Assembly: GCA_002633005.1 (NCBI GenBank)
Contig: NMRA01000171.1
Location: forward strand, 540,669 to 604,668
Source of the DNA: Phoronis australis
Taxonomy: Eukaryota > Animalia > Phoronida
DNA length: 64,000 bases
Direction: 5' to 3'
The translations under genes were made by a program, and so were the position numbers. Positions 10,401 to 40,592 of the stretch are shown here, one piece after another (the first letter of the stretch is position 1; every line of letters begins with the position of its first letter). The notes beneath the pieces were generated by a model. It made no database searches and was not told where the DNA came from. It saw only the letters and a program-made list of their open reading frames with translations.

Positions 10401-13400
10401 AATTCTCACCTCTCCATGGATAAATCAAACAGTCCCAAGAACTGACGGAGTGACGTCTGGTACATAATGTTCACCATGCTCATGTCAGTGATCAAGAAGT
10501 ACAGGATACTCCCCCTAGTGGCCACTGGCCGGAACTCCTCCCTGGCAGTGTTGATCTTGGCTTCAGTGTCAGCAGCAATGACTAGCTTCTGACTGACATC
10601 TTGTGCTGTCACCTTAATACAAGTAAGTACAGACAATGTTAATGAGATATTTCCCACACACGGAAAGTAAGAAAGTATATCATTATTTTTACAACAGAAA
10701 AAGTAGTCAACAACAATCTTTCATCAGATAATAAACTTGTGGGTTTGGAAAGAACTGAGAGTTCATTTTTGCTTGCCAGACCTCAATCAGTTGGCTTGTT
10801 ACGTCAGAAAGCAGTAAAGAAGTGGTCGAAACTAAGATTGAAAGAAGGCAAGCCTTAATGCAGTTTTGACAATTGCCAAGTCAGATGTGAAAATATACTG
10901 AAAAAAATAAAGCACAACAGAAAAAAGTAGATTCACCTATAAGTAAAATAAAATTTAAAAATCTAAAACATTCTGGCCATTACTAAAATGTCATCAGATC
11001 TCCGACAAAATGAAAAGAAGTTCTAGTTCTCTAAATAAGCTTATGACTGAGAGTCGGAGCAGACCAAGTTCGTGGTAAAGTTCAAAACATGTTACCTTGG
11101 TAACCTGCAGCACATTGATCAAGTCCTCATCGTCCACTAGTGATCCCTGTGTACTGGTCAGCCTGTACAACAAGTTGTCCTCTAGCTCCTTCATCTTACG
11201 CTTGTTACTGGTCACGTCTTCCATCAGCTTAGTACGCTCACTCTCAAGCTCCTAAAAATCCAACAATTAGTTTTAACTTTAACTCGTTAAAAATTTCAAG
11301 GGCATCAAATCAGGCCAATGACCATTACTTGATATCGCAGCAACATCTTTAAATATGCTATCGTGTAAGAGGGCAATAGGATATCTTAAATTATTTGAAA
11401 TCACCACACCATTAAATTGCCACAAAATGCAGCTGAATGACCAAATGACTACAAACTAAGCAAAAAAAGCAAACATCACAAATCGACTTGCAACCCACAG
11501 TCTGGAGACTGAGGTAAAGTGGAGGTTGCTTTCACACATACACCATGCCAAAATATGGCAGACGTTCAGTAATAAATTGCGAAGACAAATGGACGTTAAA
11601 CACAAAATTGTACATACCGCTTTCTCAGTCAAAATGACACGTCCGAGTAACTGGTCTTCCAGTCCCTTCATGGTGACTGTGAAGTCAATGATTGATGTTC
11701 TTGCCGAAATCTCTGGTGTGTAGGACGGGTTTGGCAACTTTGTCGTAAGGAACAGCTTGAAACCATCCATGACATCGCATTCCTTGTCACCGACCTTGAC
11801 CTTCAGAGTCTTACCAGATTTGATGAAGTTCTTCTCAAAGATATTGTCTAAAGCAGGATCCAGCTCCTCACCAATGTCTTCAATAAGTAATGGTCTACCG
11901 AGGGAGAGGGCATCCTCAAGATGGTTGCGGAAATATTTGTGGTTTAAGTTTGTTATCTGAAAAACAAAGAATTTGGCTTGTAACAGATTAATTTTACAAA
12001 AGAAAATAATATTTTTACACGATGTGCATGGAAAATAAAACGACTCGTACATTTTTAAATTAAAGAGAATAGTGAACAAATTTCATGTTGGGCATCAAAT
12101 GTAGAATTCAAACAATATAGAATGTGCAGATCCAGGTGACATAGACTCCTATGCTCAGCTACTTTTACATAGAAGATAGCACACACTAGGAGACTCCCTT
12201 GTTGGACCAATGGATTGGACGATCATGGATCTGCGCCTGTGTCTCTCTTATTAATATTCCCAAATTTCCCGTAAGTCACTGCCTTCTTTGCACATACCTG
12301 CAACTCGTTGGGAGTCTCCCTGTTCTTGATCCATATTTTACCCTGACCCTGAGGGTCAATGAGAAGTGGATAACGTGCTGCCTGAGTAACAATGATACCA
12401 TTCTGTACAGACAGGTCATCTTTTGGGAGACCCTGTAGGTTCCACTCTCCCACCTATGGAGATAAAATCACAAACCAATGAAAGAACAGTAACAGGTGGA
12501 AATGAAATACAAGACATATTTAAGAATTAAAGGGAATTTTAAATAAAAATAAAACACAAAATAAACAGTTTTGCAATGTGAAATTTAGGTTTCACAAAAT
12601 TAATGCAGTCAATGCTGCTAATTTGCACAAGACTTGTGATTGCAAAAAGTATAATGACTCACAGTATCAGTGTGAAACCATTGATATCTGCTGTGAGATA
12701 CCTAGATTAGAGTTATTTAACATGTAGATGACACTTTGGCAGGAAAATATGATGTGCATACTGCGATGTTATATAAAGATGCTTGAATGCATGGTTTGAT
12801 CCATTGTCTAATATAGGGATGATAAGCAAAATGACGATTTAAGATAATGGGATATACTGATACATGTTCTTGGTTATTATTTCACTTATAAAGAACCGTT
12901 GTGAGATTTGAAGAATTATCATCCTCAGGGCTAGCAACCCTCATACAATACATCTTCGAAACCCAATTCGAGGTCTAGATACAGGAAACTAGAGCCTCAC
13001 AATGTATTGAAACTAATTTGACATTAATATTCATACCAAAGTGAAATCTCTAGATAGTACAATTTTGATAGTGCCAAATGCAAAGGAAGCCACTGTTAGC
13101 CAAACATGGATGTCTACAGTGCAATGCAATGCTATTTCCAACAGATAAAATTAATTTCAAAAATGTTTTCCTTTAACGTCCCTTCTCTCACAACAAACAA
13201 CATACCATAGTTGGGTCGACCAACATGTTGGTGATGTTTAGACTGGATGTGAATGGAATACGACGGGTCTTCATATCCTTTTGCCAGCTTTTGTTGAGGA
13301 GCGTCCGGAAGTCCTGGTTGAATGGACCAGAGTAGGACAGGAAGGCTGTACACAGCAAGACGTCACCCACCAATCTGTTGACAGAAACGGACTACATTAT

Positions 13401-16400
13401 GGTGGAGGTGAAAGGTTAACAGGAAGTAAAGTACAACTAACACATTTTTGTAACTTGTGATTACTTGTTTACATTGTACGTTGAATAATATACATCCTGG
13501 GTCTACTGACCAATCCACCATTAACAGCACGCCTTACAATATGTTTATACTCAGTGCACCGATGCACTAACTCATGTGCAGACTAAAAAACACAGCTCTG
13601 CAACTCCCAAACACGGCACCAAATTAAAAAAAAACATATTTTCAAGTGTGCAGAATCCATTTAATTTCAACTCCTTCATTCCAACACATCACATTCTCTT
13701 ATGAAATGCATAATATTAACAAAATACCACTATATAACAAAGTGTTGAAGTGACAAAACAGGCAAACTGAGTCAAGGGTAAAATGTGTGCAGGCATACCT
13801 TCCAATCTGAGCCTTGAACTCTTTGCTCTGTTCTGTCCAACGCTCTTTCTCTCCACCCAGACCATTAATCAATGTAGACGCAGAGTCCATCTTCCTGCGG
13901 CATGTGTTGGCATCGTCGATCAAGGTCTGTGAACAAAATATTACAGATCACAAAACTGTTATTGTGCGACTAATGACAATCATGTCTCATAACAATTAAT
14001 TCTCCTAGCTGTCTCTCCCAGACCTAATTTGGTCCCTCGCTGCCATGTTCAATAACAAAACTGCTATTATCATAAATATTCCCGAGTCCCCACATTTCTC
14101 ATAAGTAATTGTGACTCATCCTTCAGTACAACTTCGTTCCTAACACAACTGCCATAAACAGGGCTCGATATAACGAGCTGCAGGTTGCATTTGCTCCCTA
14201 AAATTTGACAATGCAAGCTGAGATTTCTGTCAGCTCGTATCAAGTCGCAAAATGCAACCTAACTTCCAACATATGCAGCAGGTACCTCGGCAACTCATGT
14301 GAATCCGACCGTTACTTGGTTGTTGTCAAATCAAGTTTAAAAGAAAACTAACCGAGAACTGCTCTCCCGATGACTTGTAAGCATGTCGCGTGAACATGGG
14401 ATAAGCAGAATCGATTTTTGACGTAATTCATTGGCTACCATTTTCGAATACTTTTGCAAATTTCCTGATGCGCCAAAGAATGTTTCGGACAGCGACATAA
14501 CACGTGATAAAACGTCTCAAAATAGTGGTGTTTCTACTAATTCTTAAACAATGACCATAACAAACTTCATGGAGAATTTTTTTTATTTTTCACGTACGAT
14601 GTCCTTATTGTCAAATACCCACATCATTATCCTTGATATCACACTGTAGCACTGGTCGGTCCTGTAGTTAGCGTGCAAGAGGTCCGACAAATGATCGTGA
14701 TTTGGAAATGTGCCTCTCGTTTTTTTATCGCAAATGACAGTAAACATCAAAACGACAACCCTATTAATCGCCAAATGATGGTCACGTTTGTGAGTCGCCA
14801 AGAAATTCTCAAACCCTTACTTGATTCTGGTCTACGTCTACGACATATCAGTCGTCTGTCACATGTTGTTGCCAACGTAAAGTGTAGGACTACTCCAGCC
14901 ACTGAAGTGCGTGAAGTCCTACATTTTTGTTTTGAAATTTGCACTGAAATGTTTTCATGAATCGTAATACGTCATTCGGCTAGGGCAACGTTTCACGGAC
15001 GTCGAATTAAGATGTGAAGTTTAGACCTTGAACAAAAAATGAGGGGGAGTTTGCACTAAGAGTTTGGATATTTAACAACTTTGATGACAGTCATATAGCA
15101 GGTTAGACTTAGCAAAATCGCGGATGCCTCTTCAACGAGTATTTTCTCCCTTTTTACATAACAAACTTAGCTACTCGGATGCATGTTTTGGTTAGAGAGT
15201 ACAGATTCAACTTTCACGTCAGCACTTGGCCTTGCCCTCTAGAGCGATCATGAAGAACAGTAATGCCGTATGTATTTCAATTTTGCTATCCTGAAACTTG
15301 TGTTTTACGCCACAGGTAAGAGCACAATCTAAGCATTTTCTCAGTGATCTAAAAATTCAATTTTGGCGCGTTAAAATGGCGGGAAAATATTGCGACCTGG
15401 CATTTATGAATGCGAGCTGGATTTTGAAAACGCGACCTGGGCTGTTGGTAAGGTCGCAGATTGGGGCCTGGCGATTTTCATAGCCTCGAGCTCTGATAAA
15501 GACTACTATGTGCTTCTATCTGCAACAACTGTTTGTCACTCACATTCTTAGTCCACACATAACAGTCACAAAGAGTCCTATGTATCCCTTAACTCCACAA
15601 CTGTTCGTCTCTCACTATCCCGTAGCCTGTGTACAGTACACGCCAAAAGCAATTGGACAAAATAATCCAGGATTTTCTGTCACGATGGCTGAGTGTAAAT
15701 GGAATCAAAATCAGAGAAGCTAGAACACGAAGGGGAAACAATATTTTGTCTCATTATTTTTGGCATGTACTGTACATGGGCTGTGCAGCAGGACAGTGAG
15801 AGACAAACAGTTGCAGGAGCAGAGAACAAATACACCAACAGACTCCCATACAATCCTTCCATCCATACCTGTTTGTCTCTCATCGCCTTGTCATACAGGG
15901 CCTGCACTTCGTCCAACTCTTTCTGCTTGGCATCCAGTTTGGCCTGTGCTTCATTCAAGTCCTTCATAGCAGCTGCCAGGCGAGCTTCTTGGACAACAAG
16001 GTTGGCCTATGCAAATTTTTATAATAAATTAATTCGTTTTCAGAATTTTTTTAAAAAACACAAAACATTTGATAACATTTAGTTATAACATCAGGTGAGA
16101 GTTCATGGACAGTAAAATGCAATCCAAATTAAACCACTACCCATCACAAATTCAAGTTTTAATCATTGAACCACAATGCCATTCCTTTGCTAAACCTTGA
16201 CACCAACCTCAACACATGGACACATACCTTGAGAGGCAGCACCTCCTTATTGATTCCAAAGAAGACAGCCATAGCAGTGGTCCAGGAGCAGAGACCGGCC
16301 ACATTTCCACAGACTTTCTTGGCCGTTTCTAGGTTGTAGTCCTCCATCTCCAGGTAGGGAGCCAGCAGCTCCACGGTCTCATCCGTAATGGAGTCCTTGG

Positions 16401-19400
16401 GGAACGCCACCAGACTGTTGAGGAAGCCTGAAGCACCCATAAGCTAGAAGAAGAATGAGAATGTGTAAGTCTCACAGTAAGACTGCTGCTTCCAGTGGGA
16501 TGATATTCTCATACACATCACACATGGCGTTTTACGGACATGTTGGTCAATTGGAAAAACAACCCTTGAGACAATTCAAATGTGTTCGTTCCTTGTGACA
16601 AGTGGCACTTGACACATGGAATAACAAATTTTATTGACATCAGTCAGAAGTTAAGTTCAACATTCTTTAAATTGCACTTCACTTCTAAACAATGTCGAAA
16701 GCCCAGTTCTGAAGAACACCATCTATCCAATTGAATTAGTTTCATTTTGTTTTACATCCCCACAAAAATTGTGTTCCAATGGAGAATAGACACAATTAGC
16801 TATTGCTTCAATTATTAAATCAAGATCAACAGACTCACCTTCAGAGATTCTCCCCACGATGGTTTGATACATTCCCTTTCTGGATCCTTTTGCACAGTAT
16901 CCAACCTCCTCTGGAACAGGATCAGAACACAGTCCATGATCCTCATGATCAAATGAGGTGGTTTGCCTAGCTTCCTCACAGTAGCAATATCTGCTGGTTT
17001 AATGGTGTTGAGAGCATTCTCCGCTTCTTCCAGAGCTGGCTTGGCTTTCTCCAGCTTGCCTTCAGCCACTGCTTTGTCAGCTTCAATGGAGTCTACAATG
17101 GCTTGAGCCTTGTCTTTCACTTTTTGTACCTGGCATAACAGACACAGTGTTAACTTCTTATGCTATAAGCTACATCTGATTCAATAACATAGCATAAAAA
17201 CGAAATTGCTGTATAGAAAATCTTCAAGTCAAGAACTTGCACTTATAAAAAAAGAAATTTGTCACTTATTGCAAGCCACTCAAACACAAATTAAAAGAAG
17301 TAATTTGTGACAAAAATGTTTTGAGTGTGAAATGTTGTCGTTTCTATAGCAGCATATTCAAGTGAATCTACAGGGACTCCACGGCTTATAAAACAGCATG
17401 TGTGGAGGCCACTCACATTTACTCTCCGTCCAAAGTGTCACGACCTAAACTTCAAAATGTCCACTCAACCAACCATTAATAAAATCACCAAATCAACATG
17501 ACGACCTATTTGCCATGGCCACTACAGTTGCCATCTTGTCAGCCTACCTGGTTCTTGACCTTCTCTGCTGCCTGTGCCTTGGTGGTCACTTCCTTCAGCA
17601 CCTCCTCTGCCTTAGCAGAAGCCACAGCCAGTTCCTTCTCTTTCACTGCCAGCTCCTTACTCAGCTCTGATACAGCCACCTGGGCCTCCATTAATTTGTC
17701 CAGACCTGAATAACAAACAGCCAAGGTTACAGTAATAGAGCAGTTGAACCTGAGTAAAGTGGAAGGAATTGCATCACTCAGAAGGCTATTGTCATTTAAA
17801 CACTCAAACGGGTAATAAATGAAGGTGATGAAAGTTTTACAGATGGGTCAAATAGATAACTTTATGCGACAGTTATGTGGGAAAATACATTATAATCTCC
17901 ATACATTCTAGGCGTACCAGCTGTTTGTCAGGGTTACAGCACTTACTTGCTTTGATTAACACGCCAGACAAATTAATATCTTTTCATATTTTGTACTTGC
18001 AACATATTCCATTCAATTAATAAGTAAAAATGAACTTAATAGGCATTGTCATCCAAATTCTTGTTTTATTGACTTTCCACGAATGTTCTCCCCAGAATTT
18101 AATCTGTTTACAAACCTGTGTTCATTCTCTCAGCCAGTTGTCCGATTTCGTCAGTTTTCTTTGAGTAGATGGACATGTAGCCGGTAATAAAGGAGAGATA
18201 TGACTTGGGTGTCACATGTGTTGATCGGCGGTACCTAGGAAAAACACATATTTAAGGTGACTTCATGAAGGTCCTTAGATCAATGACAATGCACGTGAAT
18301 ACAACTCTCATGAAGGACTGTGTAATGAAATCTATTTTTAGAAAGAAAGTGAAAAAATGGGCTGAGTGTCGAGTATTTTGACATTGTACATGCCAAAACT
18401 AAGCAGGACAAACTGGCCAGGAATATCCCTTCATGACGTCAAACAACCAGCAAAATTCACTCTCCTAGCAGCTTCCTGTCGTCATTGCGAATGGCAGAGA
18501 ATTTGCCAAAAAAACTTAAAAGGTGAAAAGTTAACATAATTAGGAGTTTGCCTAAATGATGAGTTACTGCTGGTCATTTTTGATGTAAAAGGAATTAGAC
18601 CCTATGATGGTGAAACGGATTTTTGCCCTTACTTTTCCCATATACTGAACATTATTTTACTACTTGTTTTATTAATCAAAATAAATTCATTGCAAATACA
18701 AGCCATAAATTGTTGACGATCCCCATATCCTCAAAATGTCTGGAAATGACTATCACCATGGTAATATTCTAATAACAGATTCTGAATGGCTTAGCCATCT
18801 CACTAACTTTCCTTTCATTTTCAGGCAAGAGAGAAAGCTACTCTGATGATGAATTTGGCTTCTGCTCAGCCATTATGACAGGGAATTCTGGGTAATTTAG
18901 GTTGAATACTTTTGGCATGTACTGTAGATTGTAGTAAATTGACCAGTCATGCAGTGACTATCTCACCTGATGAAGTACTCCACACAGTTCTCAGCCACAC
19001 CATCATGGAACACACCCATTGCCTGCACCACCTGTTTCTTCACTTCTCCTGTACACTGGATGTCAAATGTTGACAGGAAGTGGTCGGCCACTGCAATCAG
19101 CGCATCCTTTGGCCAACGTTGGAACCAGTCCATGGTGCAGCCAGATATCAGACCAGGGAACTTGAGGGCGCGACTGCGGAATTTCTCACCAACCTGCGGT
19201 TAAGAAGAGCACCAGTTAGAACATTACAGATTTAAAACAATAGCATAGTGAATAGTGACAGTCTGCCTGTAACCAGATGTGAAAAAAAATCCTGCTGAGG
19301 TCAAATGGAGGCTTATAAATTACTTAAAAATTCAAATTAACACCTGACCCAGCGTATACTCAATTTAAGTCATGACATCTTTTTCCTTAAAAAGTGCAGT

Positions 19401-22400
19401 CACATAGGGTCCATGATTTCGAAAATAGTGGGAATATTTGGTTATTAAATAATAAATATTTATTTAGTGGTGTCCATTGTAAATACATTTCACATAAATG
19501 TCACGATTGAAAATAAAATTCATCTGTTTTCTGACAAAGTTCAATACTTATAAAAATTGAAGAGACCATTTGAAATAAAAATACAGATTTACTACCATAG
19601 CTGTAAGGATGTAAGTCAATAAAACTTCGCCTTAAACTTACTGGAGAGAAGCAAAGAACCACATGTAGGTTGGCTCTTGTACGAGACAGGAAGTAATCAT
19701 ACAGATTCTCCTGACTAGGTGGTCGTCGTGGATACTCCTTCTTCATTATGGGTATCAACTCATTGGTGATCTCATCCATTTCATCACGAGCAAACAGATT
19801 GGACACCTAGCAATGTACAACCAAGAATGAAGTCAAACATGATCGAAACCGATTACATAATGGACAAGACATATTGGTAAACAAAACTGAAATGCTGTTG
19901 TTGTATTTCATTTTGATGTTGAAAATTACACTTTTAATATGATAACAAGTACGATTGTCTAACTGTCCCATAACAAGTAAATGACAACACAAGCAACATA
20001 AACCAACCTCAGATGAAGAGGATTCAATAAAATCTGTCAAAACTCAATCATTAGTGCTCTGATCAACATAGTGATTGATGGCAAAAAAAATCAAAACAAC
20101 AATAAACTATTCAGCACTAATTTGAGTTTGCATGACAGTAGAGAGTATGGTATTCTAGCCAACACGAACACACATTGCTTTATAGTTTTATGAAGAACAT
20201 TCATGCAGGTTGCTAGAAAGGCAGGCAAACCAAGAGTATTAAAAGCACAAGATGGTTACGTACCACACCAGAGGACAGGACATTGTTGAGATACTCCAAG
20301 AAACCCTCCTCTTTGATCTCCTGGTCTGTGAAGATGAAGGTAATACCTTTACCCTGTTGTCCAGCAGTGCGATAGAGAGTCTTCAGGTCCTCCATTAAGT
20401 TGGACGTGTTGTATGACCTATAGCAACAGAAAAGGTTAAACATAGACCAAGACCATTGAACGTAGACCAAGACCATTGAATGTAGACCAAGACCATTATC
20501 AAATGGTTAACACAGGGTCACTACGGTGCACCATCATAGTCATATACTTTCAAGAGCAGCAGTTTTCATGAAAGACTAAAATAACGCTTTCTTCCTAGAG
20601 GAAAAACCTTGAGGAGTGTTCAAAATAACTTTGTAATTTAATTATAAGACATTAGCAATTGGTAAATATTAATAAATATTCACCATTTTTTATGTTCAAT
20701 TTTTCTACAAAATCCTTTGGATTTGACTAGGGGACACTTTTTTGGTTTGGCTCAGACAGCTGTATCAAACTATGGATTAATAAGAATACACTCTGACAGG
20801 TTTTTTAGTTAATCACTAAGATTGAAATTTTGATAACACTTTGATATTTTATGAGTGATCTTATAAAAATTGTTTTAATCCTACATTAAAACATGGAAAA
20901 AATTGGGTGATTAATGTTAACATGTGCGCAAAGTTTATCAGAGCAGTTTTATTTGACCTAATGACCTAAAGCAGATTTATTTGACCTACTGACCTTGTCA
21001 ACGTAATCTGGTAAGTCTTGTAGCCTGCGATGAACGAGGCCAACTTAGTCAGAGACTGTTTGCCTGATCCTCCGACACCGACGAGGAGAGCGTTACCCCT
21101 GGCTGTGCGAATGATGCGCGAGATTTTCACCAGATGAAGCATGGCATCCTTGAAGAACACCAAGTCCATTTTGCCTCCGCGTACCATCTCATTGTACTGA
21201 CCCATGAACATTCGGAGTCGCTCTTCAAGGTGCTCAAAAGATGGGATCTACAATATAATTATTGAAGATTAGTTTCATGAGAATGCCAAACGCACCATGC
21301 TTTTAAAACATTTAAGAAATAAAAATAGTGCAGACACGCACAAGCTGCTCAGCCAGGCCCCATAGCACCTGAAACCATTTTCTTATCTATCAACTATATA
21401 TGTGACACATAAACAGACTGAGCTGAGAAACAAGAGACCCGACTCAATGGTCTAGTGGTGAGGTCCAGTGGGACTTGAGTCCATGACCTTGAGATCAGTA
21501 GGTGGACACTTAACTCACTAGGCCACACTGCATCCTTTAAAACACTTTGTTTTAGAACGAGTCAATGTCACACTGCACAAATGGTAGGATCAACAAGTAA
21601 ACAATTAATTAAATGAGAATGCATTGCTTTCTTAGAGTTTCAGGACTATTCCTTGTTAAGAAGAAAGAAGATGTCATTCTGCAAAAGTGCCACCAGAATT
21701 GTGAATAAAAGCCAACTTCAAACAGAACATTGATAACTTTACATTGAAAATGGTTTTCATCAACAAACAGAAACACCATAAATACAGCAAATAAGTTTGA
21801 AGTCTCATCAAAATAACACATAATGTATCTAACTCAAACAGGGAGTACACCACCCTGCATCACCACAGACTATACTAACTACGAATAAACCATTTTTAAA
21901 ATGCCCATTCAAAATAAAAGCTGCCAGACATTACATTCTACCATTCATGTACAAGTTGATTACTGAGGCCATTAACTCACAGGTTCATAGATCTTTGGCA
22001 TGTCAAAGTCTGCATCCTCTGGTTCATCTCCAGTAGCTTCAGGTGCATCCCTGTTAAACAGCAAGGGTCAAAGGCTCATAGAGCAAGGTCAAAAGAGGAA
22101 AGGTCAAAAGAGGAAAGGTTATAGAACTGCCTTAGGTTAATACATTTGTAGAAAGAAGCTTCAAACATTAAGCTCAAAACTGCATTTATAAGAATCAAGA
22201 AACCAATTCATGATCAATTACTAAAAAATCATTCACAAATAGCAAAAATAACAAGACTTAACTTTTAAATATACTGAGTTGTAATTACAATACTGCAATG
22301 CTTCGAATGTAGTAACTGTTAGAAGTGTTGTAAAAAGTAAATTACAATTACAATTGACTTGCATCAAGAACAACTAAATTAAAGGAAAATTGTTATTATA

Positions 22401-25400
22401 ATAACCAAATTTGCTATAAGTTAGTAAATGAGAATGTTTTTGGACAGAATTTCTGTGAGCTACATCTCACAATATTAGAGTTAACTATGAATGTAAGTTT
22501 ATCACTTTGAAATGAAACAAACAATAGGGCTGAGTTCCGTAGATGCAAGAATTTCATGAAGGAAGCTAATGTGATCACGTGTTTGGGTTGTTAATAAAGG
22601 CAATATCTCGCAAAGTCTTGTATGATCATGCACTTTAGCCATGTTCTCGCGTCTACGGAAAGCACGCCTCGGAAACACTTTTAACTCTTTGTCACGCATA
22701 CAATGTGTTCACACAATCTAGCCACTGCACACTATGTTGCATTGTATTTATTGTATTGTATCGTATTCCATTGTATTAGCAGCATTGATTTCATTGCATA
22801 GTATTGCACCATTATATTGCTCAGCAATGTATTATAGTATGTTGCTCGACTGCATTGTAGTTAGGCCAAAACAATTTTGACAAACAGCTTCTACTGAATG
22901 TTGACAAAAATCAATAAATTTCAGTATTTAATGCTCAACTTCCACTCAGCATGCATTTTTTAACCCAAATCCATTCACAAACCAAGCAATGTGCATTTTG
23001 AACAAAATTTCAACTCTTTTATACTGAGTTCAAACAGGGTGCAAAAACTACAAATACAGAAAAAAAAACTCTTTAACAAGAACATTGTATACTAACTCTA
23101 ATTCCAAATCAGGATCGTAGTCTCTAATAAATTCAAGAGAATCTGAGTTATTATGGTCTAGTGTTAGACTGCTGCCATTGAGTTGTCCTACAGAGCACAA
23201 AAAATCTGTGAAAAGCCACCAATCGTACTGCCAATAAAACAGCGGATGGAAGAAGGACAGTCCTGACACAGGAGCATAACACAACATGTGCCAATAAGAC
23301 CAGTCATGATCATCATTTAATTAAAGTATAAAAAACGTAAACTTTTGGAAAGGAAAGGTTGAGGCATGCTGTTAGTGTACACTTTGTTATTATGAAAAAG
23401 ACGACATAAAAAGAAATGATTTTATTAACCCTTTATTTCTGTAACCCAAGAACTAGATTGTTATAATTCTTTGACAGGCGCATTCGGACATTTTCATAAA
23501 TACCAAAAAATCAAATATCAACATTTTTGTAAATTTTCCGGGGTCAGAAAGGTGTATAACGATGTCTTGTAAACCCTGTTCAAGAAAACGGTCAGAAAAT
23601 GTCAATGGTGCTGATCATGGTTTCAAAAGTTAATTTCTTCAAGTATTTCATGGCAATCCCATATGACATTGTTTAAAATAGAACGTACAAGGATGTAGAA
23701 TGACAACGCAGAACTTTAGGACAAAATGTACATAAGATGGAAACCAGTTTTATTCGCAGCACGTCAAGTAGAGCTTAACGAAATGTAAGTTATTCATAAA
23801 AATAGTGTTATATTACGATGGGCATGTTACCAAAGAGAGGAAGTTACCAAAGAAATACACATCTGATCTATTAAACACTGACAACAGCATAATGGCGAAT
23901 GAAAATAACTGATAAGTACCAGTAATTAATGTTTAAAATAAATTTGACATTTCACAAACCAAAAAACATCATTTTTCATGCGGACATCTAGGAAAAATCA
24001 AAAAACAGGAGATCAACCAATAATAGTTAAAACAATAAAAAAACAACTTTCATCCATAAATGACCCGACAATGGGATGCTTTGGTGAAAAGCTCAAATAT
24101 CGATTTGGGCTGGGTTGCATAAAACTTCACAATAATCCACTGGATAAGTTTGACTGTTGCATGATGTCAGGTGCATTGTTCAACAATAACAACATGGCGC
24201 GTGATAATGCGACATCATTGTTGCTATGCAGCATATAACTTTCATGCAACTGGGCCCTGAAGATTTAAATATCCTTTAATACAGAAGATATTTGGCATTC
24301 GTGTATTTTTTATTATAATACCTCATAAAATCTTGGAACCACATTGAGGGTACGACCTCTTCACTGAGAGCCTCCCCGAACTCTTCTGCGATTACGCGTA
24401 CGATGGTTTTTTCCATCCATTTTGTGTCATCATTGTTGGTGAACCTGAGTCGGTAGGGTCAGTTAAGAAACACAACACACACACAGAGGGTGAGACACAC
24501 ACATGAAAAACATCCTCAGCACACCTACAAGATGGTTCAAATATTTAAAACCCATTTTGCTAACAGTGATCTCAAATTGAAACAAAGGTTGGCATGTGGC
24601 GATATGAACTGCCGGAAACTGAAAATTTAATTGTAAAACACATCTGGGTGTCATTATTGTCTCCCCTCATGACCGAGACTCAAGGGGAATTAACAGGAGA
24701 GTTAGTAAGGAGGCTAAGCATTTCAACAATTAGAATTTTCCCCACATTATAGCTGTTTCAGACATTTTTCCTGATAAAATATTAGCTGTCATGACTGCGA
24801 AATGGTAGTTTGTCTGAATACTTTTGCCTCATACTGTATTGATACAAAATGCACTTCAGAATAAAATGTTTTTCAGTCGCCATCTACCAGGATTACATAA
24901 AGCATGTTTGATAGTAACACAAATGTTTTCAATTGCTAACTAAATGAACACTTGAATTCCTGCAAAACGGTGAGCTGAAGATGTTCTTGCAAATGGGTGC
25001 CTCTGTTAGTCAAATCAGGCATTAAATGGTGAAGGGAATTGTGTTCCCATGACAACTATGCATGCGCTGTCACAGAGAACATGTTACAAAGCACTGTAAA
25101 ACAAAAAGCCTTCACGCGAGAGCCAGCACGGCACTGCTATGTTGTTTTACCTCAGGAAATCGACATAATAGTCGGTTTGCTCGGAAGCGGACAAGTATGA
25201 TTCGCCAAAATCCTCACCCACAACACGGGACAAGGTTTTCACGAACCAATTAAAATCCTCTGGACCTGTAAACCTAGATTACAAGGTAGGCTTCGAAAGT
25301 TAAACAATGGCCAATGCAGACTGTACTTTTCATAAGAAGACAAAGAAAAGGATAAACAAATTTTACATTTAAACCAACAAACTTTAATGGAAAATTTACA

Positions 25401-28400
25401 TTTAATCACATTTTTCACTAAAATAGAACTTTCTGAATAGTGAACATCACACAGAGTCTAATTCAGAATTCAGAGCGACCGTGTCAAGATCCGTAAGTCA
25501 CAAGCCCTATTCATAATTCTCACACTGAGAGGACCTGAATTAAGATAACTGGAATCAGGGCTTGATATTTTGAATAATAGAAATTTTTAAAAAGAGTGTC
25601 AAACATCAAAAAGTATTTCAACAGATCCTCAACAAAGGGCTCTAAATGGGGTCAAACTTAAAAATGGGCAGTCTTAGTCCAATGGCCCCTCGTTGGAACC
25701 CTTGGGTGAGTCTGTTCAGAGCAATGTAAAGAAAAAATAAAATGAATACATAATATTGTCATTTAAAAACTGATTTGGGCACTGAATACATAAAAATAAT
25801 TTAAGACAAACAATTAAACTTTCCTATTTCTTGTGCGGCTATTAAAAATATTTAAAAGTATCTCAAGTAGTCAAAAACTCAATAAATTAGCATCACTGGT
25901 GCACAGAAACAAAGAGATAAACTTCAGGTGTGTATAAATAACATACCTGTCAGCGATCACGCGACAACATTCGTGCTTCCACAGACCAAGAAGTCGGACT
26001 GGGCTGTTGATGACCTCAGCTAACGTGTTAATCATACCCTGCCAGATGCGTGACAGATCGCGCAGATTAAACACGTAGTGGAACTTGGCCGGAGTTGGCA
26101 ACATTCGGTTCTGAAACACACAGAAGTGACTCAACTAAAGAAGGCCGAAAACAGGATTGAAAGGATGGCGTTTACTGCAGTTTGGAAGGATTTCTAAAAC
26201 ATTTTGAATGATAGGAACTTTTGAAATAACAGACAGCCAACAGATCTACGGACTTCACCTTTTAGGGGAAAAATACTGTCGCTATGTTTTTTAATTATAC
26301 TTTTCATTTGAGTGAATTCATCATTGCTCAACACTGGTTTCCATGATGATTCTCAACACATTCATACCACATTCCCTCCCTTTCAAGCACTCGACAAAAC
26401 ACAAGGTAACAAGAGACTATTTGTTCAATGTTCTGACAGCCAACACTGGATTCGAACTCAGGCATGAAAAATGGCAGTTTGCAGTCCAAACCACTGGACA
26501 AAAATATCTTCCCCACCTTTTGTCCGTTTATATTCTACAACTCATTTTACCTTAGTTAACTGCCACAGCCTCCTGGTTACAGGGATCAACTGCAGTACCA
26601 TGGCACGCACATCGTCACTGAATCCTCGCTGCTCACAATAGTGACCACAGCCAATGGTCCTGAAGATCTTGTCAATGGATGAGTTAGATGGCAGAGAACA
26701 ATTGAAGATGTTGAACTGACGTTTGAGACGCTGTGGGATGTCGTTACGACCACCACCTGGTTGAATCATGGCCGCCATGAACTAGACAGGAAATACAGAA
26801 AGTATACAGGATAAGAACCAGTTAAAAGAGCATTAGAAACATAACCATACAATTCACCCAAAGCCAAAATTTTAAATGTACAACAATTCATAACTAAAGC
26901 GCAGAAGGTATTTCACAAATCATACCGAGAGTATCAACCTCCAGCCAAGAGTTGTGTTCCTACTTTTCATAACTTTTTTCATTGTTGACCACAATATAAT
27001 TATTTGCAGTACAGTGCAAGTTAATAGATAACTATCTGGAAACACTGAGTACCAAGTGAACTCAACTAAAGCTTAACATACCTGCATGTCAACAATGTGA
27101 GTGAAGTCACCAGGTTTCTCCAAATTGTAAAACCCTTTCATCTCCATCAACTGGCGCACAATCTCATTGGCGATCTGATCACGCCACTCATTAATGATGG
27201 GCATGTTGATGTCATCGATGAACACTGACATCTTCCTGCCAGCAGGGGGCCCAAAGGTGCTGCCCATTCTCTTGTCCACATAACTCTCAATAGTGCGCTA
27301 GGAAAGAAAGGGTAGAAAATAAGGATGGAGACACTGAACGACACAACGGCATATAAAGACGATCAGTTACTTTGTTGCATGTCAGAAAGTATCAACTGAA
27401 AATTATTTGTCATCCTTTTACCAGTTCTGAAACCATCGACAAGTATTACACTTAACTTAAGCATGTTATGTTAAGTCAAAGGTATGGCGATTGCTTTGTG
27501 ACTTGGGAATGTACAACAGTATAACAAAAAACCTTAATTTGTCTTTAACGTTTTTCAGCCACATTCAATGGATGAGAAATTGGTGAAAGCAGACAAAAAA
27601 TAATTGCAGGCTGTCTGATACACATCGTCAGTACCAGACGTGCGCAGGCTGCATATGTGGGCCTATTGCACCAATCACCTGACAGCTGACAGCTGGAGGG
27701 TAGGATTTCCTCCACAGCATAGAAAACTCTCCCTCCATAAGGCACAGGCGCCTTTCCCTCAGATGTGCAAGGGTCCTGATAATGCAACATATGGTAACAG
27801 GAATAACACTAATAGACCACTCACCTGGAACATAAGTGGTGTGGTTGCACTGGAGAAGTTAAGAGCCTTGGACATGTGCTGCTCAGGGTTGTACTTGGCC
27901 ATGTAACCATTAATCATCACTGTTTTAGCGGTACCCTGTTCACCAATCAGCAAGACAGCCTTCTCTTGCTTGGCTATGGTGTCGATAAGGAACGTTGTCC
28001 GCACGTTATCCACCATGGGTACAAGGATGGAGTTGTACTCAGGTGTGCTGTCTGGGGGGTAGACATACTGTTCCACGCGATGCTCCCAATGTTGCCACTC
28101 ACCTGAAGCAGAAGATAATTTTTTACAGGGGAGATAAATTACTAGTGGAACAACAGTTCAAGCACAACCAGTCAGTATTTGATATCCTGTTCAAAATAAA
28201 AAGTTCTAACTGTCCAATATAAGCTACATACCCAATCTTTAAATTTATAACACTTGTACTAAAAAAGAGACAAATTTGTAGCAAATAGACGGAATTACAA
28301 CTTTTATGTCAGATAAGCTTTCAATGAGCAAAATCTCCATAACTCGCCATAAGAAATTAATGACTAAGTTGAATATGACCATACCTAAAGCCCGCATAAT

Positions 28401-31400
28401 GTAAAGCCTTGGTCTGACTACCTACCAGTCTTTTCATCAACAAAGTAATCAAACATAGTGGAGTCTGAATCAGCTGGGATGTCAGGTACATTGATTGTAA
28501 ACTCTTCATTCTTGCGGACAAAGTCCTCCATTTTGGCACGGTCATCCAGCTCCAGGAAAGCACCAATCGACCACATGATGGTGAATGTGTATAGCCGACT
28601 CAGATGCTCTTTAGTTACCCCACCCGACTCTTTATCATCTTTCTTTGGGATCAAGCCATTCAGGAGATCACAGCACTAAAACAGGGGAGATAACACTGCT
28701 GCAACAGTTACTTCAACATGCTATTTATCAACACTAGCAGAACCCTGCTTTCAGACTTGTTGTATCAGATTTAATGTAATCGTGTAAAATTATCATTTTG
28801 CTCAGTTAAACCAGTTGCAGTTATAAGCCCATCACAAAAACAACTTTTGATTTACCACTTAATGTTATCAGACTGACCTGATATTGTTCTTTAGTTAATA
28901 TAGGTGTGATTTCTGGCCTTAAAAAACTGTCAGTTTGTTATTGCTCGAGACACGGTTCTACAAGGTTGACTTGTCACACCGTTTAACTTTTTTCACCAAG
29001 CATGGTCTCAAGCAATGACGAACTGCCAGCTCCTCATAAGACCAAAAATCACTCCTCATCTTAGCTAGCAAGAAGTCGAGACAATTTTATAGTTTTGTAG
29101 TAAGTGGTCTAAATCAAAAGTCAATATTTTTGACAGAACGTGCCAGCTCTATTGACAGAACGTGCCAGCTCTATTGACGAAGCGTGGCGGGTTTGTTGCC
29201 ACTTTAATGAATAATCAGCTTTCTTCTCACCTGTCTGATGACGAAAGCCTCAAGCACCTCCATTTTCCAGGTCAAATTCTGCCAAGCAAAGCGATAGATC
29301 TCAGCGAAGGACAAATCGAACAGTGATAGAATGATGTCAGCTTCCATGGATGAGCGACTGTTGAGCCAGCCTTGTAGTATTGGACGCCAATCAAGGGCGG
29401 AGCTACTCATGTAGACCATGCCGTTACGTGACACAGTAGCGGGAGAGGCATTGTCAATGTTATGTGGCTCAAATACAATTTTACAGTTCGGTGCCATGGG
29501 AATGCGGTCACCATTGGCCAAGGTCAACGTCTTGTTATCATCAAGCACGGAGTTGAGGTTCTCAATCCAGATGGCGTCAACAGGACCATCCAGAACTAAC
29601 CAGATGTGCTCACCTGCATAAGAAAAGTTGTAATAATAGGAGTAATAATAAAATATAGTTGATACATCCACGAAAGTTCATTGTACTTATTAACATTAAA
29701 TCTGGCCTCCTGGACAATATTCACAAAATTAAACTCCTAGAACCTTGGAGGCATCACACCTCCTTCAAAGGGAAGTAATGAAAAACAATGATAATGATAA
29801 TAATAATAATTACAACAATAATAACAACAATTAATGAAAACAATAAAATTAATAATAACAAAAAATAAATTATAATTTTAAACATAATACAATTAACACT
29901 TACAACAGCAATAACAACAATTAAAAACCATTATGGACTTTCTAAGACTGATGAAATAATTGTTCCTCCCTAACTTGTATGTTATAATATTTAATTCTCA
30001 CAAATAAATTTGGCTCTAAATGAATTTTCCACACATTACCTTTCTTTGCTCGTAGTGTCCTACGCCACAGTGTGGAAAAGATACCATCCGTCCAGTCGTT
30101 GGTGGCCACATCCAGTCGACCAAACATCTGTGGAGCAGTGATGGCTTTTGGGTTCATCCTCATCTCTCTGTGAGGTTCCCCACAGTCGCTCATGGCTTTC
30201 ATCAGCATGTGAATACAGCAGGTCTTGCCGGCGCCACTGGGGCCAAGTGCCATCATTCCATGGCGGACACGCTGGGTCTCAAATAGCTACAAGAACATTG
30301 ATTGCGAAATTAATATAACAGAAAAGCTGTTGGTGGTGTTATCCTAGCTATGGATGACCAACCAAACATGTAACAATGGGCAATAGTGGTATCACTTTAT
30401 TGTCAACACAATAATTGTAATCAATATGGCTTCCTGCAATACCATCACAAGTATGTACCTGAATAAGCTTGAGAATCCAAGATGGATGGTTGATGAGTCC
30501 AGCTTCTTCCACGTTGCGACTAATGGCTCCTTCCAGTTCCGGATATCCAGCTTTGTCCAGAGTGATTCCGGGAAACAAGTCATTGATGAGTGACAGGAAG
30601 AGGGGCTCGTCTTGATCGACAAGTTTGGATAGGTTCATGTCACGTAACACACGCATGACAATTGTCTGCTCAGTGTCGTCTGGATTGGCTCTCTTGTTGG
30701 CACCCAGAGTACGCAGGACGGACAGGATGTTCCGTAGACCAAAGTCATAATGAACCTGGAGAAATTACGCATCAATAAAACATCACCTTGATGATTAAGC
30801 CATTTCTAAGGATTTAGCAGCATTATTGCCCAAAACTGACCCATCTCATGCATAAAAACAGAGTGCAGATTTTCAAGAACTGCTCCATTTTGACAATGAA
30901 ATGAAAGTGAAAAATTTCTAGATGTAAAGTATCCGAGTGGTGACTGCACCACAATATATTGCATATTACTGAAATTTATTGAAAACCCAGAATCAAAACT
31001 AGCACCACATATACATTCAGTAATAAATCAAAAAGGATAGAATGCAATCATGTGACTGGAATTTTTTGAATAATTCAATTCAAGAGTCCTCAAAAGACTA
31101 ATTCAATAAAACACACCTGTTTGGTCAACTGCTCTTCACACAGTTTGTAGAGTGTGTAAAACTTGCGTGCCAGTACGATGTTTTCCAGGAAACCACAACT
31201 GGCTAGCTTGACACGAATGATGATCTGTCGATCAGGGACCATCATGGCAACTGTACGGAAGTTAATCTTTAAATTCTCAGGTAACTCCTGTCGACCAGCA
31301 TAGCCGGGATTCTGCGAGAAAAAATCTTTTAATGTATTTCGTAATAGTCCTAAATTTTAGTACATAGTGTCTTGTATTATATTTGTCAATGATTTATATA

Positions 31401-34400
31401 ACACATCTTGTCCCATGCACCCGGACTGAAACACCGGAGATTTCCAAAGAGACTCCACCAAGAACAAGAATTTGTGAGGGCTCCTTCTGAAATATGGTTT
31501 GAAAAAGGTACCATGTACCTTTTTGGCATGTCTGGCTAATGTATGGTACATGTATGTAAAATGTCAACATTTTCTAAATTCTGGTCCTGAAAAGGCTGTC
31601 AACAACATGAAGTCAACAAACTGCTGACAAAACGAAACCTTCTTCATGCAACACCATACTTTCAAACCACATGTCTCAATGAGAATGTTAAGGTTGGCAA
31701 CAGAAGTTTGCAAAAGAGCTCTACTTTTTCTTCGAAGAATCAGCAGGAAGTTCTTTTTGGGCACAAATACACTTGCAGGCAAAATGAACTTTTGGTGGGC
31801 TCTTTTGGAAAATCTTGGTTCTACCTAAAAATGTGCAGTTCTGATCAACTAAGAAAATGCAGTGTGTATAGTATTTTTTCATTTTTACCATACTGTTCAG
31901 TTAGTATAGACACAACCACTGAAGTAATTGTGTGAAAAACCTTTAGGGACTTCTACACTAACCACATTACATCATGCAGTGCAGCTCTAAATGAAATGAC
32001 ATATGCCATGTCTCCATGGCAACAAGTTCCCCAAAGATCAACCTCTTGTGGAGGTGCAAAGCAGCATCACTATCTCCTACACCTACCATAGTCAAGAAGA
32101 TGCCAAACTCTGGGTTCATGTCCACTGTGTCTCCGTCTGTGAACACAAACACCTTCTTCCTCTCTTTCTTTGCCGACAGCACGATGGCGATCTGTTGTGC
32201 TGCCACCGACAACACAGGGAGGTCGATACGATTGAACTCATCAAAACAACCCCAGGAGCCTGACTGGGCAAGACCCTTGTAGATCCTTCCCAGACCACGG
32301 AAGTCCATCTGGTCAGAGCAGTTGAAGACCACCACATACTTGCCGAGGCAACGTCCCATGTCCTTAGTGGTCTCAGTCTTGCCGGTTCCAGCGGGACCTG
32401 CCGGAGCACCACCCATGGACATCCCAAGCGCTTGAGCTAACGTAATGTAGCACCTGAAAATGGTTAAAAATTGAAGAACCTAACACCAATGTCTCGCAAC
32501 TATATTCGCTCACCATTTCTATTAGACTTAAAAGAAAATAACTTAACCACTGCTCATTGAGATTTGGACACACTACCACTACCAAAAGTCTGAAAAAGTC
32601 TGTCCTGCCTTAGCAAACATGCACACAGGACAAGCCCTGTGACAACTACCCTTCTATTGGGTGGGATAATGAGCCACTAAATATTCACAAAGTGCTGGTT
32701 ATTAAGAAAGAGAGTTGTAACCCGAGTAGACAGTAAATAGGAAGTTGTTTACAAGCAAGTGGCAGAGTCGAGAGATAAGCGTCCCATGTAACCCCAATAC
32801 AAGAATGTTTTATTTCATTGGCGCTGCCAAGTGAATAAATCTAGAGAGAATATAAAACATTAAGTCACCTGTCAGTCAATGGTGTGATGACCAGTCGCTC
32901 AGTACATCCGAGAAACTCGTTCTGATATATGAAGTCAACGTCAGTGATGGAGATGATGCATTTGTCCTGATCCTCAATGAAGTAGAAGCGAGACTGTTTC
33001 TGCCACTCAAAGTCTGTTGGTGTGCGGATATGCATACGGCACTGAAACATTACATAAAAATGAAGGGGAATTGCCAGGAATGCAAGAGTCCACTGAACTT
33101 GAAACAACTTAATTCATGGTTTTCTTTCACCAGCATATAACAGTCTATGTTCAGTTGGACAGATGACAACACACTTCACCAATGAGGGTCAGTAAGCCAA
33201 GGAAAGCAAGAATTTATTTCATGATGACATCATGATTCATTTCATTATTTACCAGATGGCATCATTACCATTCTATTTTATGATCACATGACTGATTTCA
33301 CTGGCAGACGGCAACATTACCAATAAGAAAATATGACTACTTGTGTGTAAAATTTGAACAGAATGATATTGACCATAATGCAAAAATGCAATAAATGAAT
33401 AATATGCCATAAGAAGCAAAAATGATCTTTCGTAAAACACGTACCAGGTCATCAAAGATGTCCCTCTGGTGCACATGTATCGTAATCAAAGTCTCAAACT
33501 TTGTTCTTTCGACTTTGGTCAGATTCCTTGTCGTCTGATCGATGAGCGTGTTCAACAGCTCCAAGAACACCTGATTGGTCTGCTGCATAACCTTGCGGTC
33601 ATATTTGGCATTATTCAGAGCATCAGTGGCGTCACGAGTCCAGATCATTTGGATACCAAGTATACCAACCTGCCATGGACAGAAGTAAGGTTCAGTTTTT
33701 TGTTCAGATAAGTACAGAAATTTTCAACCAATTTTGCAAGAGAATAACTGCTAAAATTATCATTTTCAATTTTTCAAATGATGTTTTATGCCAAATATTG
33801 TTTCCTGACATCAACACAGTTCGAACTAAGGTAACAAAACATAACATTTTTCTTAATATTTTTAAATTTGTGGAAAACTTATAAGAATAAAATTTCCCTC
33901 ACCCACCATATCGTGTGCTAAAAAGAATCACACCAGACAACATGGTGCATGCACTAACACAGCCCTAAAATGCAAAATGTCCAATGACCACTTTTAAAAC
34001 TACTTTTAGTGAGTAAGCTCTGAATTTGCTCTCTTCAAGATTTCCCCCATTGAAGAATTATCTTTTCAATACTGAACATTGCCATAAAATTTAAACCCTG
34101 ATGCAACAAGCTGTAAGATTCCCCCAGAAACAATACGGTAACACTTTTAGCAGCGCATACTCATCACTTGAAATATCCGCAAATCCCCATGAACGGACAA
34201 AACACAAAATATTTCTAACCTGAGCAGGGAACATGTTCAAGAACTCAAGCAGTTGAAATCCCGAGTCCTGGATGGCCATGGCTGCTGTGCGAATGACACC
34301 GTGTAAAGATTTCTGTGCCATCAACATCAAGTTCATCAACCATACCTCCACATTACCCTCCGCCTTTATAGGTTTCTCCAGCTGCCAGGAGAGAAAGACA

Positions 34401-37400
34401 AACTTATAGACAAAGAAGTATTGATTTGATGGAAAGTGTAACCAGTGTTGAGGGACACTTCCGAATAAAACATGGCACCATCATTCCGCAAAGTTTATTA
34501 GACAGACGTTTTACAAAGTTATATTGAGCAACCCACAACAGTAAAGAAATCGAAGAATAAAATGATCTTTAGAATTATACACACAGAAAGAGTACTGTAG
34601 GCAATGAAATAATCAGTACCTAATGACTTTGAACGCTTGTCTTAACTATAACATAGCTTCATTTATTAAGCATGTCAGTAAAGAATGGTGCTAATAAATT
34701 CTACACAGGAAATGACTTATTTAAGAGATGCTTCATGCAGTAACATTGTGCTCAACACTCCATCAACAAACGACCTTGAGCTCATCCAGTGAATGACCTT
34801 GAAACACAGTTGCAACGTCGATCTCTTTTAACAAGCAAGTGTCCACACTGGAATCAATGCCCACTATTCTACATGTGGATTGAGCAAAGAACTGATAGAA
34901 TGATTCAAAACTATTCTTCCTTTTAGATCCAACTTTATCATAGAAGCAACTGTAACATTGAGACATGGTAGTCATGACATATAATCTTACCTCCACTGTC
35001 TCCCCTTCTGAAGAGTGGATGGACAGTATTTGGTCATATTGCTTCTCGTGGAATTTTACAGACTTTGTGTTGTCGAAGACGCTGAGCAAGTGTGCTTGGA
35101 TAGTATGAGGGTCACTTGCCTGACCCAGGATTTCCAAAAGCGCAGGATCCGACACGAAGAAAAATCGAGGAAACATCAACCTCTTTTTCTCCAAATACCT
35201 GCAATTTGATGACTGTGTTAACAACAAGCTAATTAAGAATACAATTGACAGCATTAGTAACAACCAAGGATCGCAAGAAAAAACATTAAAAAAATCCTGA
35301 CATGGGACTTCACAATTGCGAAAACTTCAAAACACCTGGTGAAGTTTCTTCATAATAGTCACACAAAAATCCTGAACTATATTCAGTGTCCCACATTTCA
35401 AAGGCCCTATATCAGTAAGAACAATTAACTTAGAGGTTTCCGCATCAATTTAGTTATTATCAAATATACACAAAGTCGGACATTTAGCAATGCTATGTTG
35501 TAATCTAGGGCCCATTCCATAAACGTGACTTATTACTTAAGACACAAATTTAGTCTTATGCTCCTGCTTCACGAGTGCTGACAAAAAGTTTAGCCAAGTA
35601 ATTATGAAAGTATCACAGTATAGAAATAATTTATAAAAATTACCTGTAACTAGCAGTTATGTGAACATTCTCAGAGACCACATTTTTGCTCAAGTCAGAA
35701 ATAATAATTTCTCAAAAGAGTTATGTGAAGCAAAAGACCAAATTTTTCATGAAACAGACATCTGACATCAACAGAGACTGCCACTATTTGACCGACCAGT
35801 CAGTTACAACATTATGCTTTATAAAATTCTGACAAAAATTTGGAGAAAACTGATTTATTCTGTCAAGCTCAAAACAAGATACAATGTGAAATAGAATGTG
35901 AACCAAAGTTCTTACCCTGTGAGAGACTTCTGACAAACTTCAAGTTGCTCCAACAGATGGGGTAGGAGCTGACTCAGCATTTCATCTCCAACACAACACT
36001 GGATCACATTAGTTGTTTCGTGAGCACGAGTCATGATACGCAGCCAAGACTTGTCGATGTTTGAGAAACGTTTGGCTTCCTGCGAGAAAGAAAGAAATTG
36101 TGATTAAAGCTAAAAACACAATCAATTTCCAATTGAAAACAGTAGACAGAAAATAAGCATTTAATAGTGAATATTGTAAAAACATTGGACAATGAACATA
36201 GTAGAATCCTGCAGGTCTGCCAGTCAGAAGTCCAATCACAAATTTAGCAATGTAGCCTACACGAGTCTATCCAAAGTAAACAAGAATATCTGTACTGGTT
36301 ATCAAATAAATGTATCTCCACCTCAATCAGCATTTCACTTAGGAGACACATCGACTCTTGTTCAGTCTCTGGCTAACGATTTGGACACAAATAAACGGAA
36401 CATGTAAGAAAAATAAGCCCAAACTTGACTATGTATTAGTAACGTGATCATTGCAGTGCCACATCAAAAGACCTTCACTGTATGTTGTCAAGCAAATTTT
36501 CCCTTGTATAACAAAGCATCTCACTTCATAGCAACAGCAAACAAAGGGAATCCAACCCAGCCTTTGAAACATGTAAGAAAAATAGGGAACAAGTTTATCT
36601 TAATGTTGCGTACCTGAGGCAACTGCTTGGCGATGTCACCACCCACAAACACAGCTTCCAGGTAAACCCACAGGTTCTGTACAGTCATCCACTGCTCAAT
36701 GATCTCCGACGAGTTGGACAAGTTCTGAACCCACGTCTGAATCTGTTTCTTGAAGGGGGCATTGTATCTGGGAACAAGAACACAGTGATACATAAGAATT
36801 GATATCAATCTCACTGAAGGGGGTATTGTATCTGGGAACAAGAACACAGTGATACAAAAGAATTGATATCAGTCTCACTGAACGGGGTATTGTATCTAAG
36901 AACAAGAACACAGTGATACAAAAGAATTGATATCAGTCTCACACAATATCCACATAGGTTGAATGAAACTTAGTGACAAATGAAACCTGCAAACAAATTT
37001 TCTAATATCCATCAGTTGGTGCAGCATAATACTACTCCAGTACTGAAGCCACTCCAACTGCTTGCAAGCAGTTTTCATTCTTACATAAACTAGACAATAA
37101 TGCACACCGTGTCAGATAAAACTATTCAAATCCGAGCCTAATAAAAATCACAAAATTCCATACTTACCTGGGTTAATGACCACAAATGACAAAAAAACTA
37201 TATTCTAATTTCCAAAAATTTCTCTTTTAATGACAATTGCTCATACACCAACCGCTGAACACAGAATAAGACTTTTGTAGTTTCTAAGAAGCACCCAGGT
37301 CAGTGAACAATTAATATTTTACATAATAAGTGACAAACAAACAGTAGTTTATGAATATTCAGTCAAATAGTTAGATTTGACACTTACCCCTGAATGACAA

Positions 37401-40553: not shown

Positions 40554-40592
<39 letters not shown>

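What the first reader, a model, noticed from the sequence alone, without database searches (positions are those of the whole stretch)
24322..25273. Hidden pair of mutually exclusive exons in the outer-arm dynein motor (AAA3 lid, just before AAA4)
Seen: two exons of identical length (123 nt) and phase (2-2), each with good AG/GT sites and no stops. Each fills the same gap between ...CRVIADR and DAPEATG.... The peptides are [42 protein letters not shown] and [42 protein letters not shown] (16/42 identical, keeping RFT..D..W..KT..RV..E.FGE...DF.R). With one copy the protein is 4625 aa, the size expected for DNAH5; both would insert a duplicate segment in the ring. High divergence with preserved frame implies an old duplication with both copies under selection. 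Inference: one gene may make two motor variants (e.g. cilia vs sperm flagella), a split that vertebrates achieve with the DNAH5/DNAH8 paralogues. MXEs are known in some invertebrate dynein genes, so novelty of this one needs checking.
Basis: partly seen in the sequence, partly recalled or inferred. Interest (0 to 1): 0.8.

Follow-up and report, generated by a model that had tools for sequence, protein, structure and literature searches.

The report
Ciliary dynein with swappable motor exon
The gene for a main motor of this animal's cilia (DNAH5-type dynein) holds two old, diverged copies of one motor-domain exon, a pair also found in other invertebrates; its RNA mostly uses the second copy alone and likely sometimes the first, so one gene would make two motor versions whose functional difference is untested.

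Summary
Exons A (25273-25151) and B (24444-24322) are both 123 nt, phase 2-2, AG/GT-bounded and stop-free. Both align to the same 42 residues of the AAA3 lid of a DNAH5-type outer-arm dynein.

RNA reads show B spliced in alone (10 reads at the upstream joint, 11 at the downstream joint, two runs). A has about two reads in one run that fit its borders; no A joint reached the listing threshold. No A-to-B joint was listed.

Ten of 80 metagenome loci carry the same exon duplicated in tandem, about six distinct sequence types. One animal has an A-like then B-like pair with four copy-diagnostic residues, one has three copies, and rotifer-like loci have two. Introns are unalignable and synonymous sites saturated, so both copies have long been under selection.

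I found no report of this cluster in seven literature searches. It is a new member of a known kind (tandem-duplicated mutually exclusive exons in a motor domain). Interest 0.5.

The parts
25151..25273 (-). Alternative exon A, 123 nt, phase 2-2; the copy closer to the family consensus; minor form in the runs read
   Evidence: about 2 reads in X1 fitting its borders; scores above B against 61 of 82 homologous segments
24322..24444 (-). Alternative exon B, 123 nt, phase 2-2; more derived copy (Trp-Met in place of Trp-Phe); major form in the runs read
   Evidence: (joints 25947>24444 in 3+7 reads, 24322>22050 in 9+2 reads)
25947..26110 (-). Constitutive upstream exon, first part of the AAA3 lid (Pfam PF17857 positions 16-67)
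21981..22050 (-). Constitutive downstream exon (acidic loop and second strand of a predicted hairpin before AAA4)
24445..25150 (-). 706-nt intron between A and B; two short words in its first 100 nt (AGTGCTTT, GCGCATGCA) also follow the A-like exon of L006; a lead only
4014..58078 (-). DNAH5-type (DHC3, outer-arm gamma) dynein heavy chain gene, 64 exons modelled with one alternative copy; first exon not located

Best explanation
Exons A and B are an old tandem duplicate in a DNAH5-type outer-arm dynein gene; messages carry B alone or, likely less often, A alone, so the gene would make two full-length motors that differ in 26 of 40 residues at the end of the AAA3 small (lid) domain. Shown: anatomy, B inclusion with A skipped, conservation of a matching pair in another animal. 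Inferred: A inclusion (about two reads). Inferred: choice by cell-type or stage-specific splicing factors acting on two middling-to-weak splice-site pairs, since frame, intron length, splice-site class and RNA pairing give no other lock. Inferred: double inclusion is not tolerated because it would repeat a helix-helix-strand unit inside the motor ring. Predicted effect: both copies keep the invariant core residues and differ at variable positions, so the swap likely tunes the AAA3/AAA4 surface, where linkers dock after the power stroke, for different kinds of cilia or flagella.
For: Same gap filled by either exon. B joints in 10 and 11 reads; no A-B or skip-both joint listed. In X1, depth is 1.88 and 1.97 in the two bins of exon A, 0 in the bin before and 0.03 after. 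120/64 = 1.875 fits two reads running from A into exon 22050 (one shared base); A into B would give 1.91. The aligner's one-base overhang is seen on B's loose end at 24321. L006/L010/L011 have A-like then B-like exons with intact AG/GT: 23/40 and 20/40 identity copy to copy, 17 and 15 crossed, 4 copy-diagnostic positions against 1 species-diagnostic and 1 crossed. Trp-Met occurs in both B copies and in 0 of 82 other segments. Synonymous sites are saturated and introns unalignable. In a neutral simulation at 1 substitution per site, 27 of 4000 A copies stayed intact and none kept more than 17/40 residues, against 23/40 observed. No protein of the 122 with this segment (364 scanned) has two copies side by side. 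A homologue model gives helix, short helix, strand for the segment, pLDDT 78-94.
Against: No A joint was listed (threshold 3 reads); the two A reads may be one molecule, the partner exon is inferred from depth arithmetic, and X2 and X3 have none. Only 18-19% of each run was read, and about 20 joint reads cannot exclude rare A+B messages. The exon tree is weak: B pair in 76 of 200 bootstraps, A pair in 39 of 200. The first copy is frameshifted in rotifer-like L018 and absent in L002, L003, L021, L023 and L048, so it can be lost. No tissue data and no test of motor function.
Confidence: 0.78

Rival explanations
1. Both exons are functional and exclusive but interchangeable: A is a minor, unregulated alternative kept only because any message that picks it must still make a working motor.
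For: Core residues and net charge (-6 each) are the same in A and B; A is minor in the only run that shows it; some rotifer-like loci lost one copy.
Against: Copy-specific residues are kept between the window and L006 although silent sites are saturated; a rarely used redundant exon should be lost over such a span; X1 and X2 differ in A use, though on very few reads.
Confidence: 0.12
2. Exon A was once functional but is now nearly silent and decaying in this lineage; B is the only real exon.
For: No A joint listed in 4 runs; a decayed first copy exists in L018.
Against: A has exact length, open frame, splice sites that score above B's (donor rank 19 vs 6 of 63 from the weakest, acceptor 26 vs 15), fits the family better than B (61 vs 17 of 82), and has reads that stop at its borders.
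Confidence: 0.06
3. A is a cassette that is added to B in some messages, giving a motor with a repeated 41-residue unit.
For: 123 nt keeps the frame, so decay of the message would not remove it; the 706-nt intron is long enough to splice.
Against: No 25151>24444 joint listed; the depth sum fits A>22050 better than A>B; none of 122 homologous proteins has the unit twice in tandem.
Confidence: 0.04

Closest known systems
Mutually exclusive exon of Schistosoma mansoni cytoplasmic dynein heavy chain SmDHC1 (Pillmann et al. 2011, PMC3228551; passages read)
   Same: [quoted passage not shown]
   Different: Cytoplasmic DHC1, not axonemal DHC3/DNAH5. The passages do not give the domain, so the same position is neither shown nor excluded.
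Mutually exclusive exon clusters of arthropod muscle myosin heavy chain (PMC3228551 passages; PMC2257972 search listing)
   Same: Tandem duplicated exons swap parts of a motor domain to tune mechanochemistry in different cell types.
   Different: Many clusters, single gene replacing a family, function shown; here one cluster, paralogous DHC3 genes exist in animals, function untested.
DNAH5/DNAH8/DNAH15 (DHC3) paralogues of animals (Kollmar 2016, PMC5100056; passages, part 5 of 9, supplement passages)
   Same: Variation of the innermost outer-arm motor; the paper notes that some DHC genes have alternative splice forms in the motor domain without naming them.
   Different: Whole-gene duplicates from the base of Metazoa; the present switch is inside the DNAH5 branch and changes only 41 residues.

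Membership tests
Tandem-duplicated mutually exclusive exons | Adjacent homologous exons of similar length, same phase, valid splice sites | tested here: met
Tandem-duplicated mutually exclusive exons | [quoted passage not shown] | tested here: met
Tandem-duplicated mutually exclusive exons | Each exon is spliced to both constitutive neighbours | tested here: inconclusive
   Met for B; for A only about 2 reads, inferred from depth
Tandem-duplicated mutually exclusive exons | No joint inclusion and no skipping of both | tested here: inconclusive
   None listed in 4 runs, but depth is low and the listing threshold is 3 reads
Tandem-duplicated mutually exclusive exons | Both copies conserved in other species | tested here: met
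   L006/L010/L011 pair with copy-diagnostic residues; tree support weak
Exclusion by frameshift and decay, U2/U12 mismatch or steric clash (classes in PMC5740500, passages) | Length not divisible by 3, U12 donor, or under 50 nt from donor to branch point | tested here: not met
   123 nt; donors GTATGT, GTAAAA, GTATTA; 706-nt intron with branch-point-like words near its 3' end. Branch points were not mapped by experiment.
Docking-site/selector RNA pairing (Dscam type) | Conserved competing intronic duplexes | tested here: inconclusive
   No competing duplex above shuffles in window or L006; no close relative for covariation
DNAH5-type outer-arm dynein heavy chain (DHC3) | Best match and tree placement with DNAH5, apart from DNAH8 and inner-arm dyneins | tested here: met
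   Best PDB hit human DNAH5, E 1.4e-23, next 3.3e-17; groups with deer, fly, lobster, rotifer and clam DNAH5-like rows, local support 0.95

The most novel reading that the evidence does not exclude
An unreported splice switch in the main outer-arm motor, as old as the split between rotifers and other spiralian-type animals, kept, lost or expanded to three copies in different lineages, that gives different cilia (sperm tail, feeding, swimming or sensory cilia) different AAA3/AAA4 surfaces from one DNAH5 gene.
Probability: 0.3. Interest if true: 0.7.

Novelty: new member of a known kind. Interest (0 to 1): 0.5.

Why it matters
Ciliary motors are thought to be tuned by swapping whole genes. A natural pair of 41-residue variants in otherwise identical DNAH5 molecules would allow a clean test of what the AAA3 lid does in an axonemal motor. 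The same exon is duplicated or triplicated in several invertebrate lineages, which suggests this segment is a repeated target for tuning. Gene models that show one copy, or neither, miss it.

Tried and rejected
No whole genome is held, so paralogues in this animal could not be counted. No RNA holder was listed by index; the runs came by species label. Searches with each 40-aa exon found nothing in the protein collection, which was limited to 71-2000 aa, and only chance hits in PDB. Aligning many exon fragments to one long dynein failed and was dropped. NG86 dS was undefined (saturated) for all window comparisons. Intron alignments: 2 of 39 pairs exceeded their shuffles, both AT-rich and between non-matching introns; rejected. 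Duplex scan: 1 of 6 intron pairs beat 15 shuffles (-24.0 vs minimum -21.1 kcal/mol, upstream intron with downstream intron); it would loop out both exons and has no match in L006; not accepted. GCATG occurs in the first 150 nt of 7 of 45 window introns, so the shared word after exon A is only a lead. L040 and L055 gave two profile hits but are one segment split by an intron, and were not counted as duplicates. P0152 has the segment twice, 792 aa apart and identical; not tandem inclusion. The fold search only returned dyneins, with human DNAH5 first, and gave no contact data. Look-ups of earlier findings by place and by DNAH5 words gave nothing.

Full report
Observation. On the minus strand, 25273-25151 (A) and 24444-24322 (B) are each 123 nt, begin after AG, end before GT, and have one open frame with split codons at both ends. 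Either joins exon 26110-25947 to exon 22050-21981 in frame. They share 14 of 40 residues and 57 of 123 nt; the score of 77 exceeds all 5000 shuffles (maximum 35), and 10 of 14 identical residues use different codons. No other old duplicated coding exon was found among 769 stop-free segments.

The gene. The upstream exon's best match among solved structures is human DNAH5 residues 2780-2832. Toad DNAH8 residues 2833-2874 align to both A and B, and the neighbours leave room for one copy only. A spliced model of 64 exons with one copy is open for 4613 aa; the first exon was not found and one junction is weak. In a FastTree tree of the flanking motor region (49 of 67 rows; rows under 125 aa, near-duplicates and spare outgroups dropped; the exon itself excluded) the gene falls with deer, fly, lobster, rotifer and clam DNAH5-like rows (local support 0.95), apart from toad DNAH8. 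Its nearest named relative is the clam Mya arenaria, 79-80% identical. The phylum is not settled, because no named echinoderm or hemichordate row was available.

RNA. Three raw-read runs and one contig set with the same species label were laid on 20900-26800, reading 18-19% of each raw run. Joints 25947>24444 (3 reads in X1, 7 in X2) and 24322>22050 (9 and 2) show B included with A skipped. No joint for A, for A>B or for skipping both was listed; the threshold is 3 reads. At finer bins, X1 has depth 1.88 in 25146-25209 and 1.97 in 25210-25273, 0 in the bin before and 0.03 in the bin after. That equals two reads bounded by A's splice sites. With the letters shared at each possible joint, A>22050 predicts 120/64 = 1.875 and A>B predicts 1.91. 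This is an inference from depth and may be a single molecule. X2 and X3 show nothing on A. Tissues are unknown.

Relatives. A metagenome scan with the upstream exon returned the best 80 of 273 confirmed loci. A profile built from 82 homologous segments, none from the window, scored A 52.8 and B 37.5 bits and found tandem copies in 10 of 80 loci. These are L006, L010 and L011 (one sequence type), L007 (three copies), L019, and L015, L017, L022, L018 and L026, which group with the rotifer Rotaria (L015 and L026 in the tree, support 1.0). All intact copies have AG/GT and phase 2-2, at 123 nt or once 126 nt. Many other loci end too early to judge or have the segment fused to the upstream exon. Among DNAH5-branch loci with introns on both sides that reach the downstream exon, 7 have duplicates and 1 (L023) has a single copy. 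The first copy of L018 lacks 14 nt.

Orthology. In L006 the order is A-like then B-like: 23/40 and 20/40 identity copy to copy, 17 and 15 crossed. Four positions are copy-diagnostic (F/M10, V/I18, Y/W35, Y/F36) against one species-diagnostic and one crossed. Trp-Met is in both B copies and in 0 of 82 other segments. A 40-residue tree (28 of 38 rows) pairs B with B in 76 and A with A in 39 of 200 bootstraps, and never pairs the two copies within the window or within L006. The duplication therefore likely predates the window/L006 split. Whether the L007, L019 and rotifer clusters share that origin or arose again is unresolved. Silent sites are saturated and matching introns do not align. Under neutral change at one substitution per site, without indels, 27 of 4000 simulated A copies stay intact and none keeps more than 17 residues, against 23 observed. 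A scores above B against 61 of 82 segments, B above A against 17, and the clam protein carries an A-like segment (119 vs 80). A is the more ancestral-like copy although B is the main form in these runs.

Structure. The upstream exon covers Pfam AAA lid PF17857 positions 16-67, and the AAA4 family PF12780 begins about 50 residues after the segment. An AlphaFold model of a rotifer-like homologue (P0164, 24-row alignment, mean pLDDT 58, 78-94 over this segment) gives a 19-residue helix, a short helix and a strand; a second strand follows in the next exon's part, likely forming a hairpin around an acidic loop. Both copies keep the invariant F1, D6, W9, G23, D38 and F39; B departs at F10M and V37Q. 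Published outer-arm structures place post-power-stroke linkers on AAA3/AAA4 (PMC10267688, passages) and describe linker docking grooves that include AAA3S of the beta and gamma chains of Tetrahymena (bioRxiv 2020.12.08.415687, passages). I could not list contacts for these residues in DNAH5, so the tuning role is inference.

How exclusivity is kept. The length is divisible by three, the donors are ordinary GT sites, and the intron between the copies is 706 nt, so the frameshift, U12 and steric classes listed in PMC5740500 (passages) do not fit. No competing RNA pairing stood out. B has weaker sites than A by a matrix from the gene's own 63 introns, yet dominates, which points to regulation by splicing factors. 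Two short words shared after exon A in the window and L006 contain GCATG and YGCY, which I recall as Rbfox and Muscleblind motifs; this is a lead only.

Known or new. Mutually exclusive exons are described for Schistosoma cytoplasmic dynein and arthropod myosin (PMC3228551, passages). Kollmar 2016 says only that some dynein genes have motor-domain splice forms, and its supplement text has no hit for 'mutually exclusive' or 'splice' (one of two files not searchable, and the alignment and tree data were not examined). The same paper dates the DHC3 duplications to the base of Metazoa and lists three DHC3 genes in sea urchin, which undercuts the idea that this pair replaces DNAH5/DNAH8. Seven searches of the open library (listings and abstract openings seen, apart from the papers named above) showed no report of this cluster. 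Earlier notes of this scan concern the microtubule-binding exon of cytoplasmic dynein-1, a different gene and domain.

Verdict. The pair is real, old and shared with other invertebrates. Exclusive use is likely (0.78 for regulated, functionally distinct forms) but A is thinly shown in RNA. It is a new member of a known kind; interest 0.5.

Noticed in passing
window 42466-42798 and 42942-43274: A 333-nt stretch with the 3' part of exon 43418-43003 is repeated at 99.7% identity, with an N at 42799: likely an assembly overlap of two alleles, not an alternative exon.
   Followed up: partly
L002/L003/L021/L048 versus L015/L017/L022/L026/L018/L023: Rotifer-like DNAH5 loci come in several states: two copies, first copy frameshifted (L018), single copy with intron (L023), and second-type copy fused to the upstream exon. 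The fused state could result from intron loss through a spliced message, which would delete the alternative copy. L002 and L015 share an assembly prefix, so both states may sit in one genome.
   Followed up: partly
L007 1852-3497: Three intact copies of the exon (123, 123, 126 nt); the contig ends before the downstream exon, so there may be more.
   Followed up: partly
L019 and L040: Same assembly prefix: L019 is a DNAH5-type gene with a duplicated exon, L040 groups with DNAH8; if one animal, it has both the paralogue and the splice pair.
   Followed up: no
P0184 (Batillaria gene model): The predicted protein runs from the upstream exon straight into the downstream exon and lacks this segment, so gene callers can miss the exon.
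   Followed up: no
window 36751-36942, 51668-51928, 6318-6429: Short tandem repeats in introns; the first repeats the acceptor region of exon 36767-36614.
   Followed up: no
window 24100-24260, 22530-22580, 24660-24710: Intronic repeats that attract reads from elsewhere in the transcriptome (90-95% alike, loose ends); not dynein exons.
   Followed up: no
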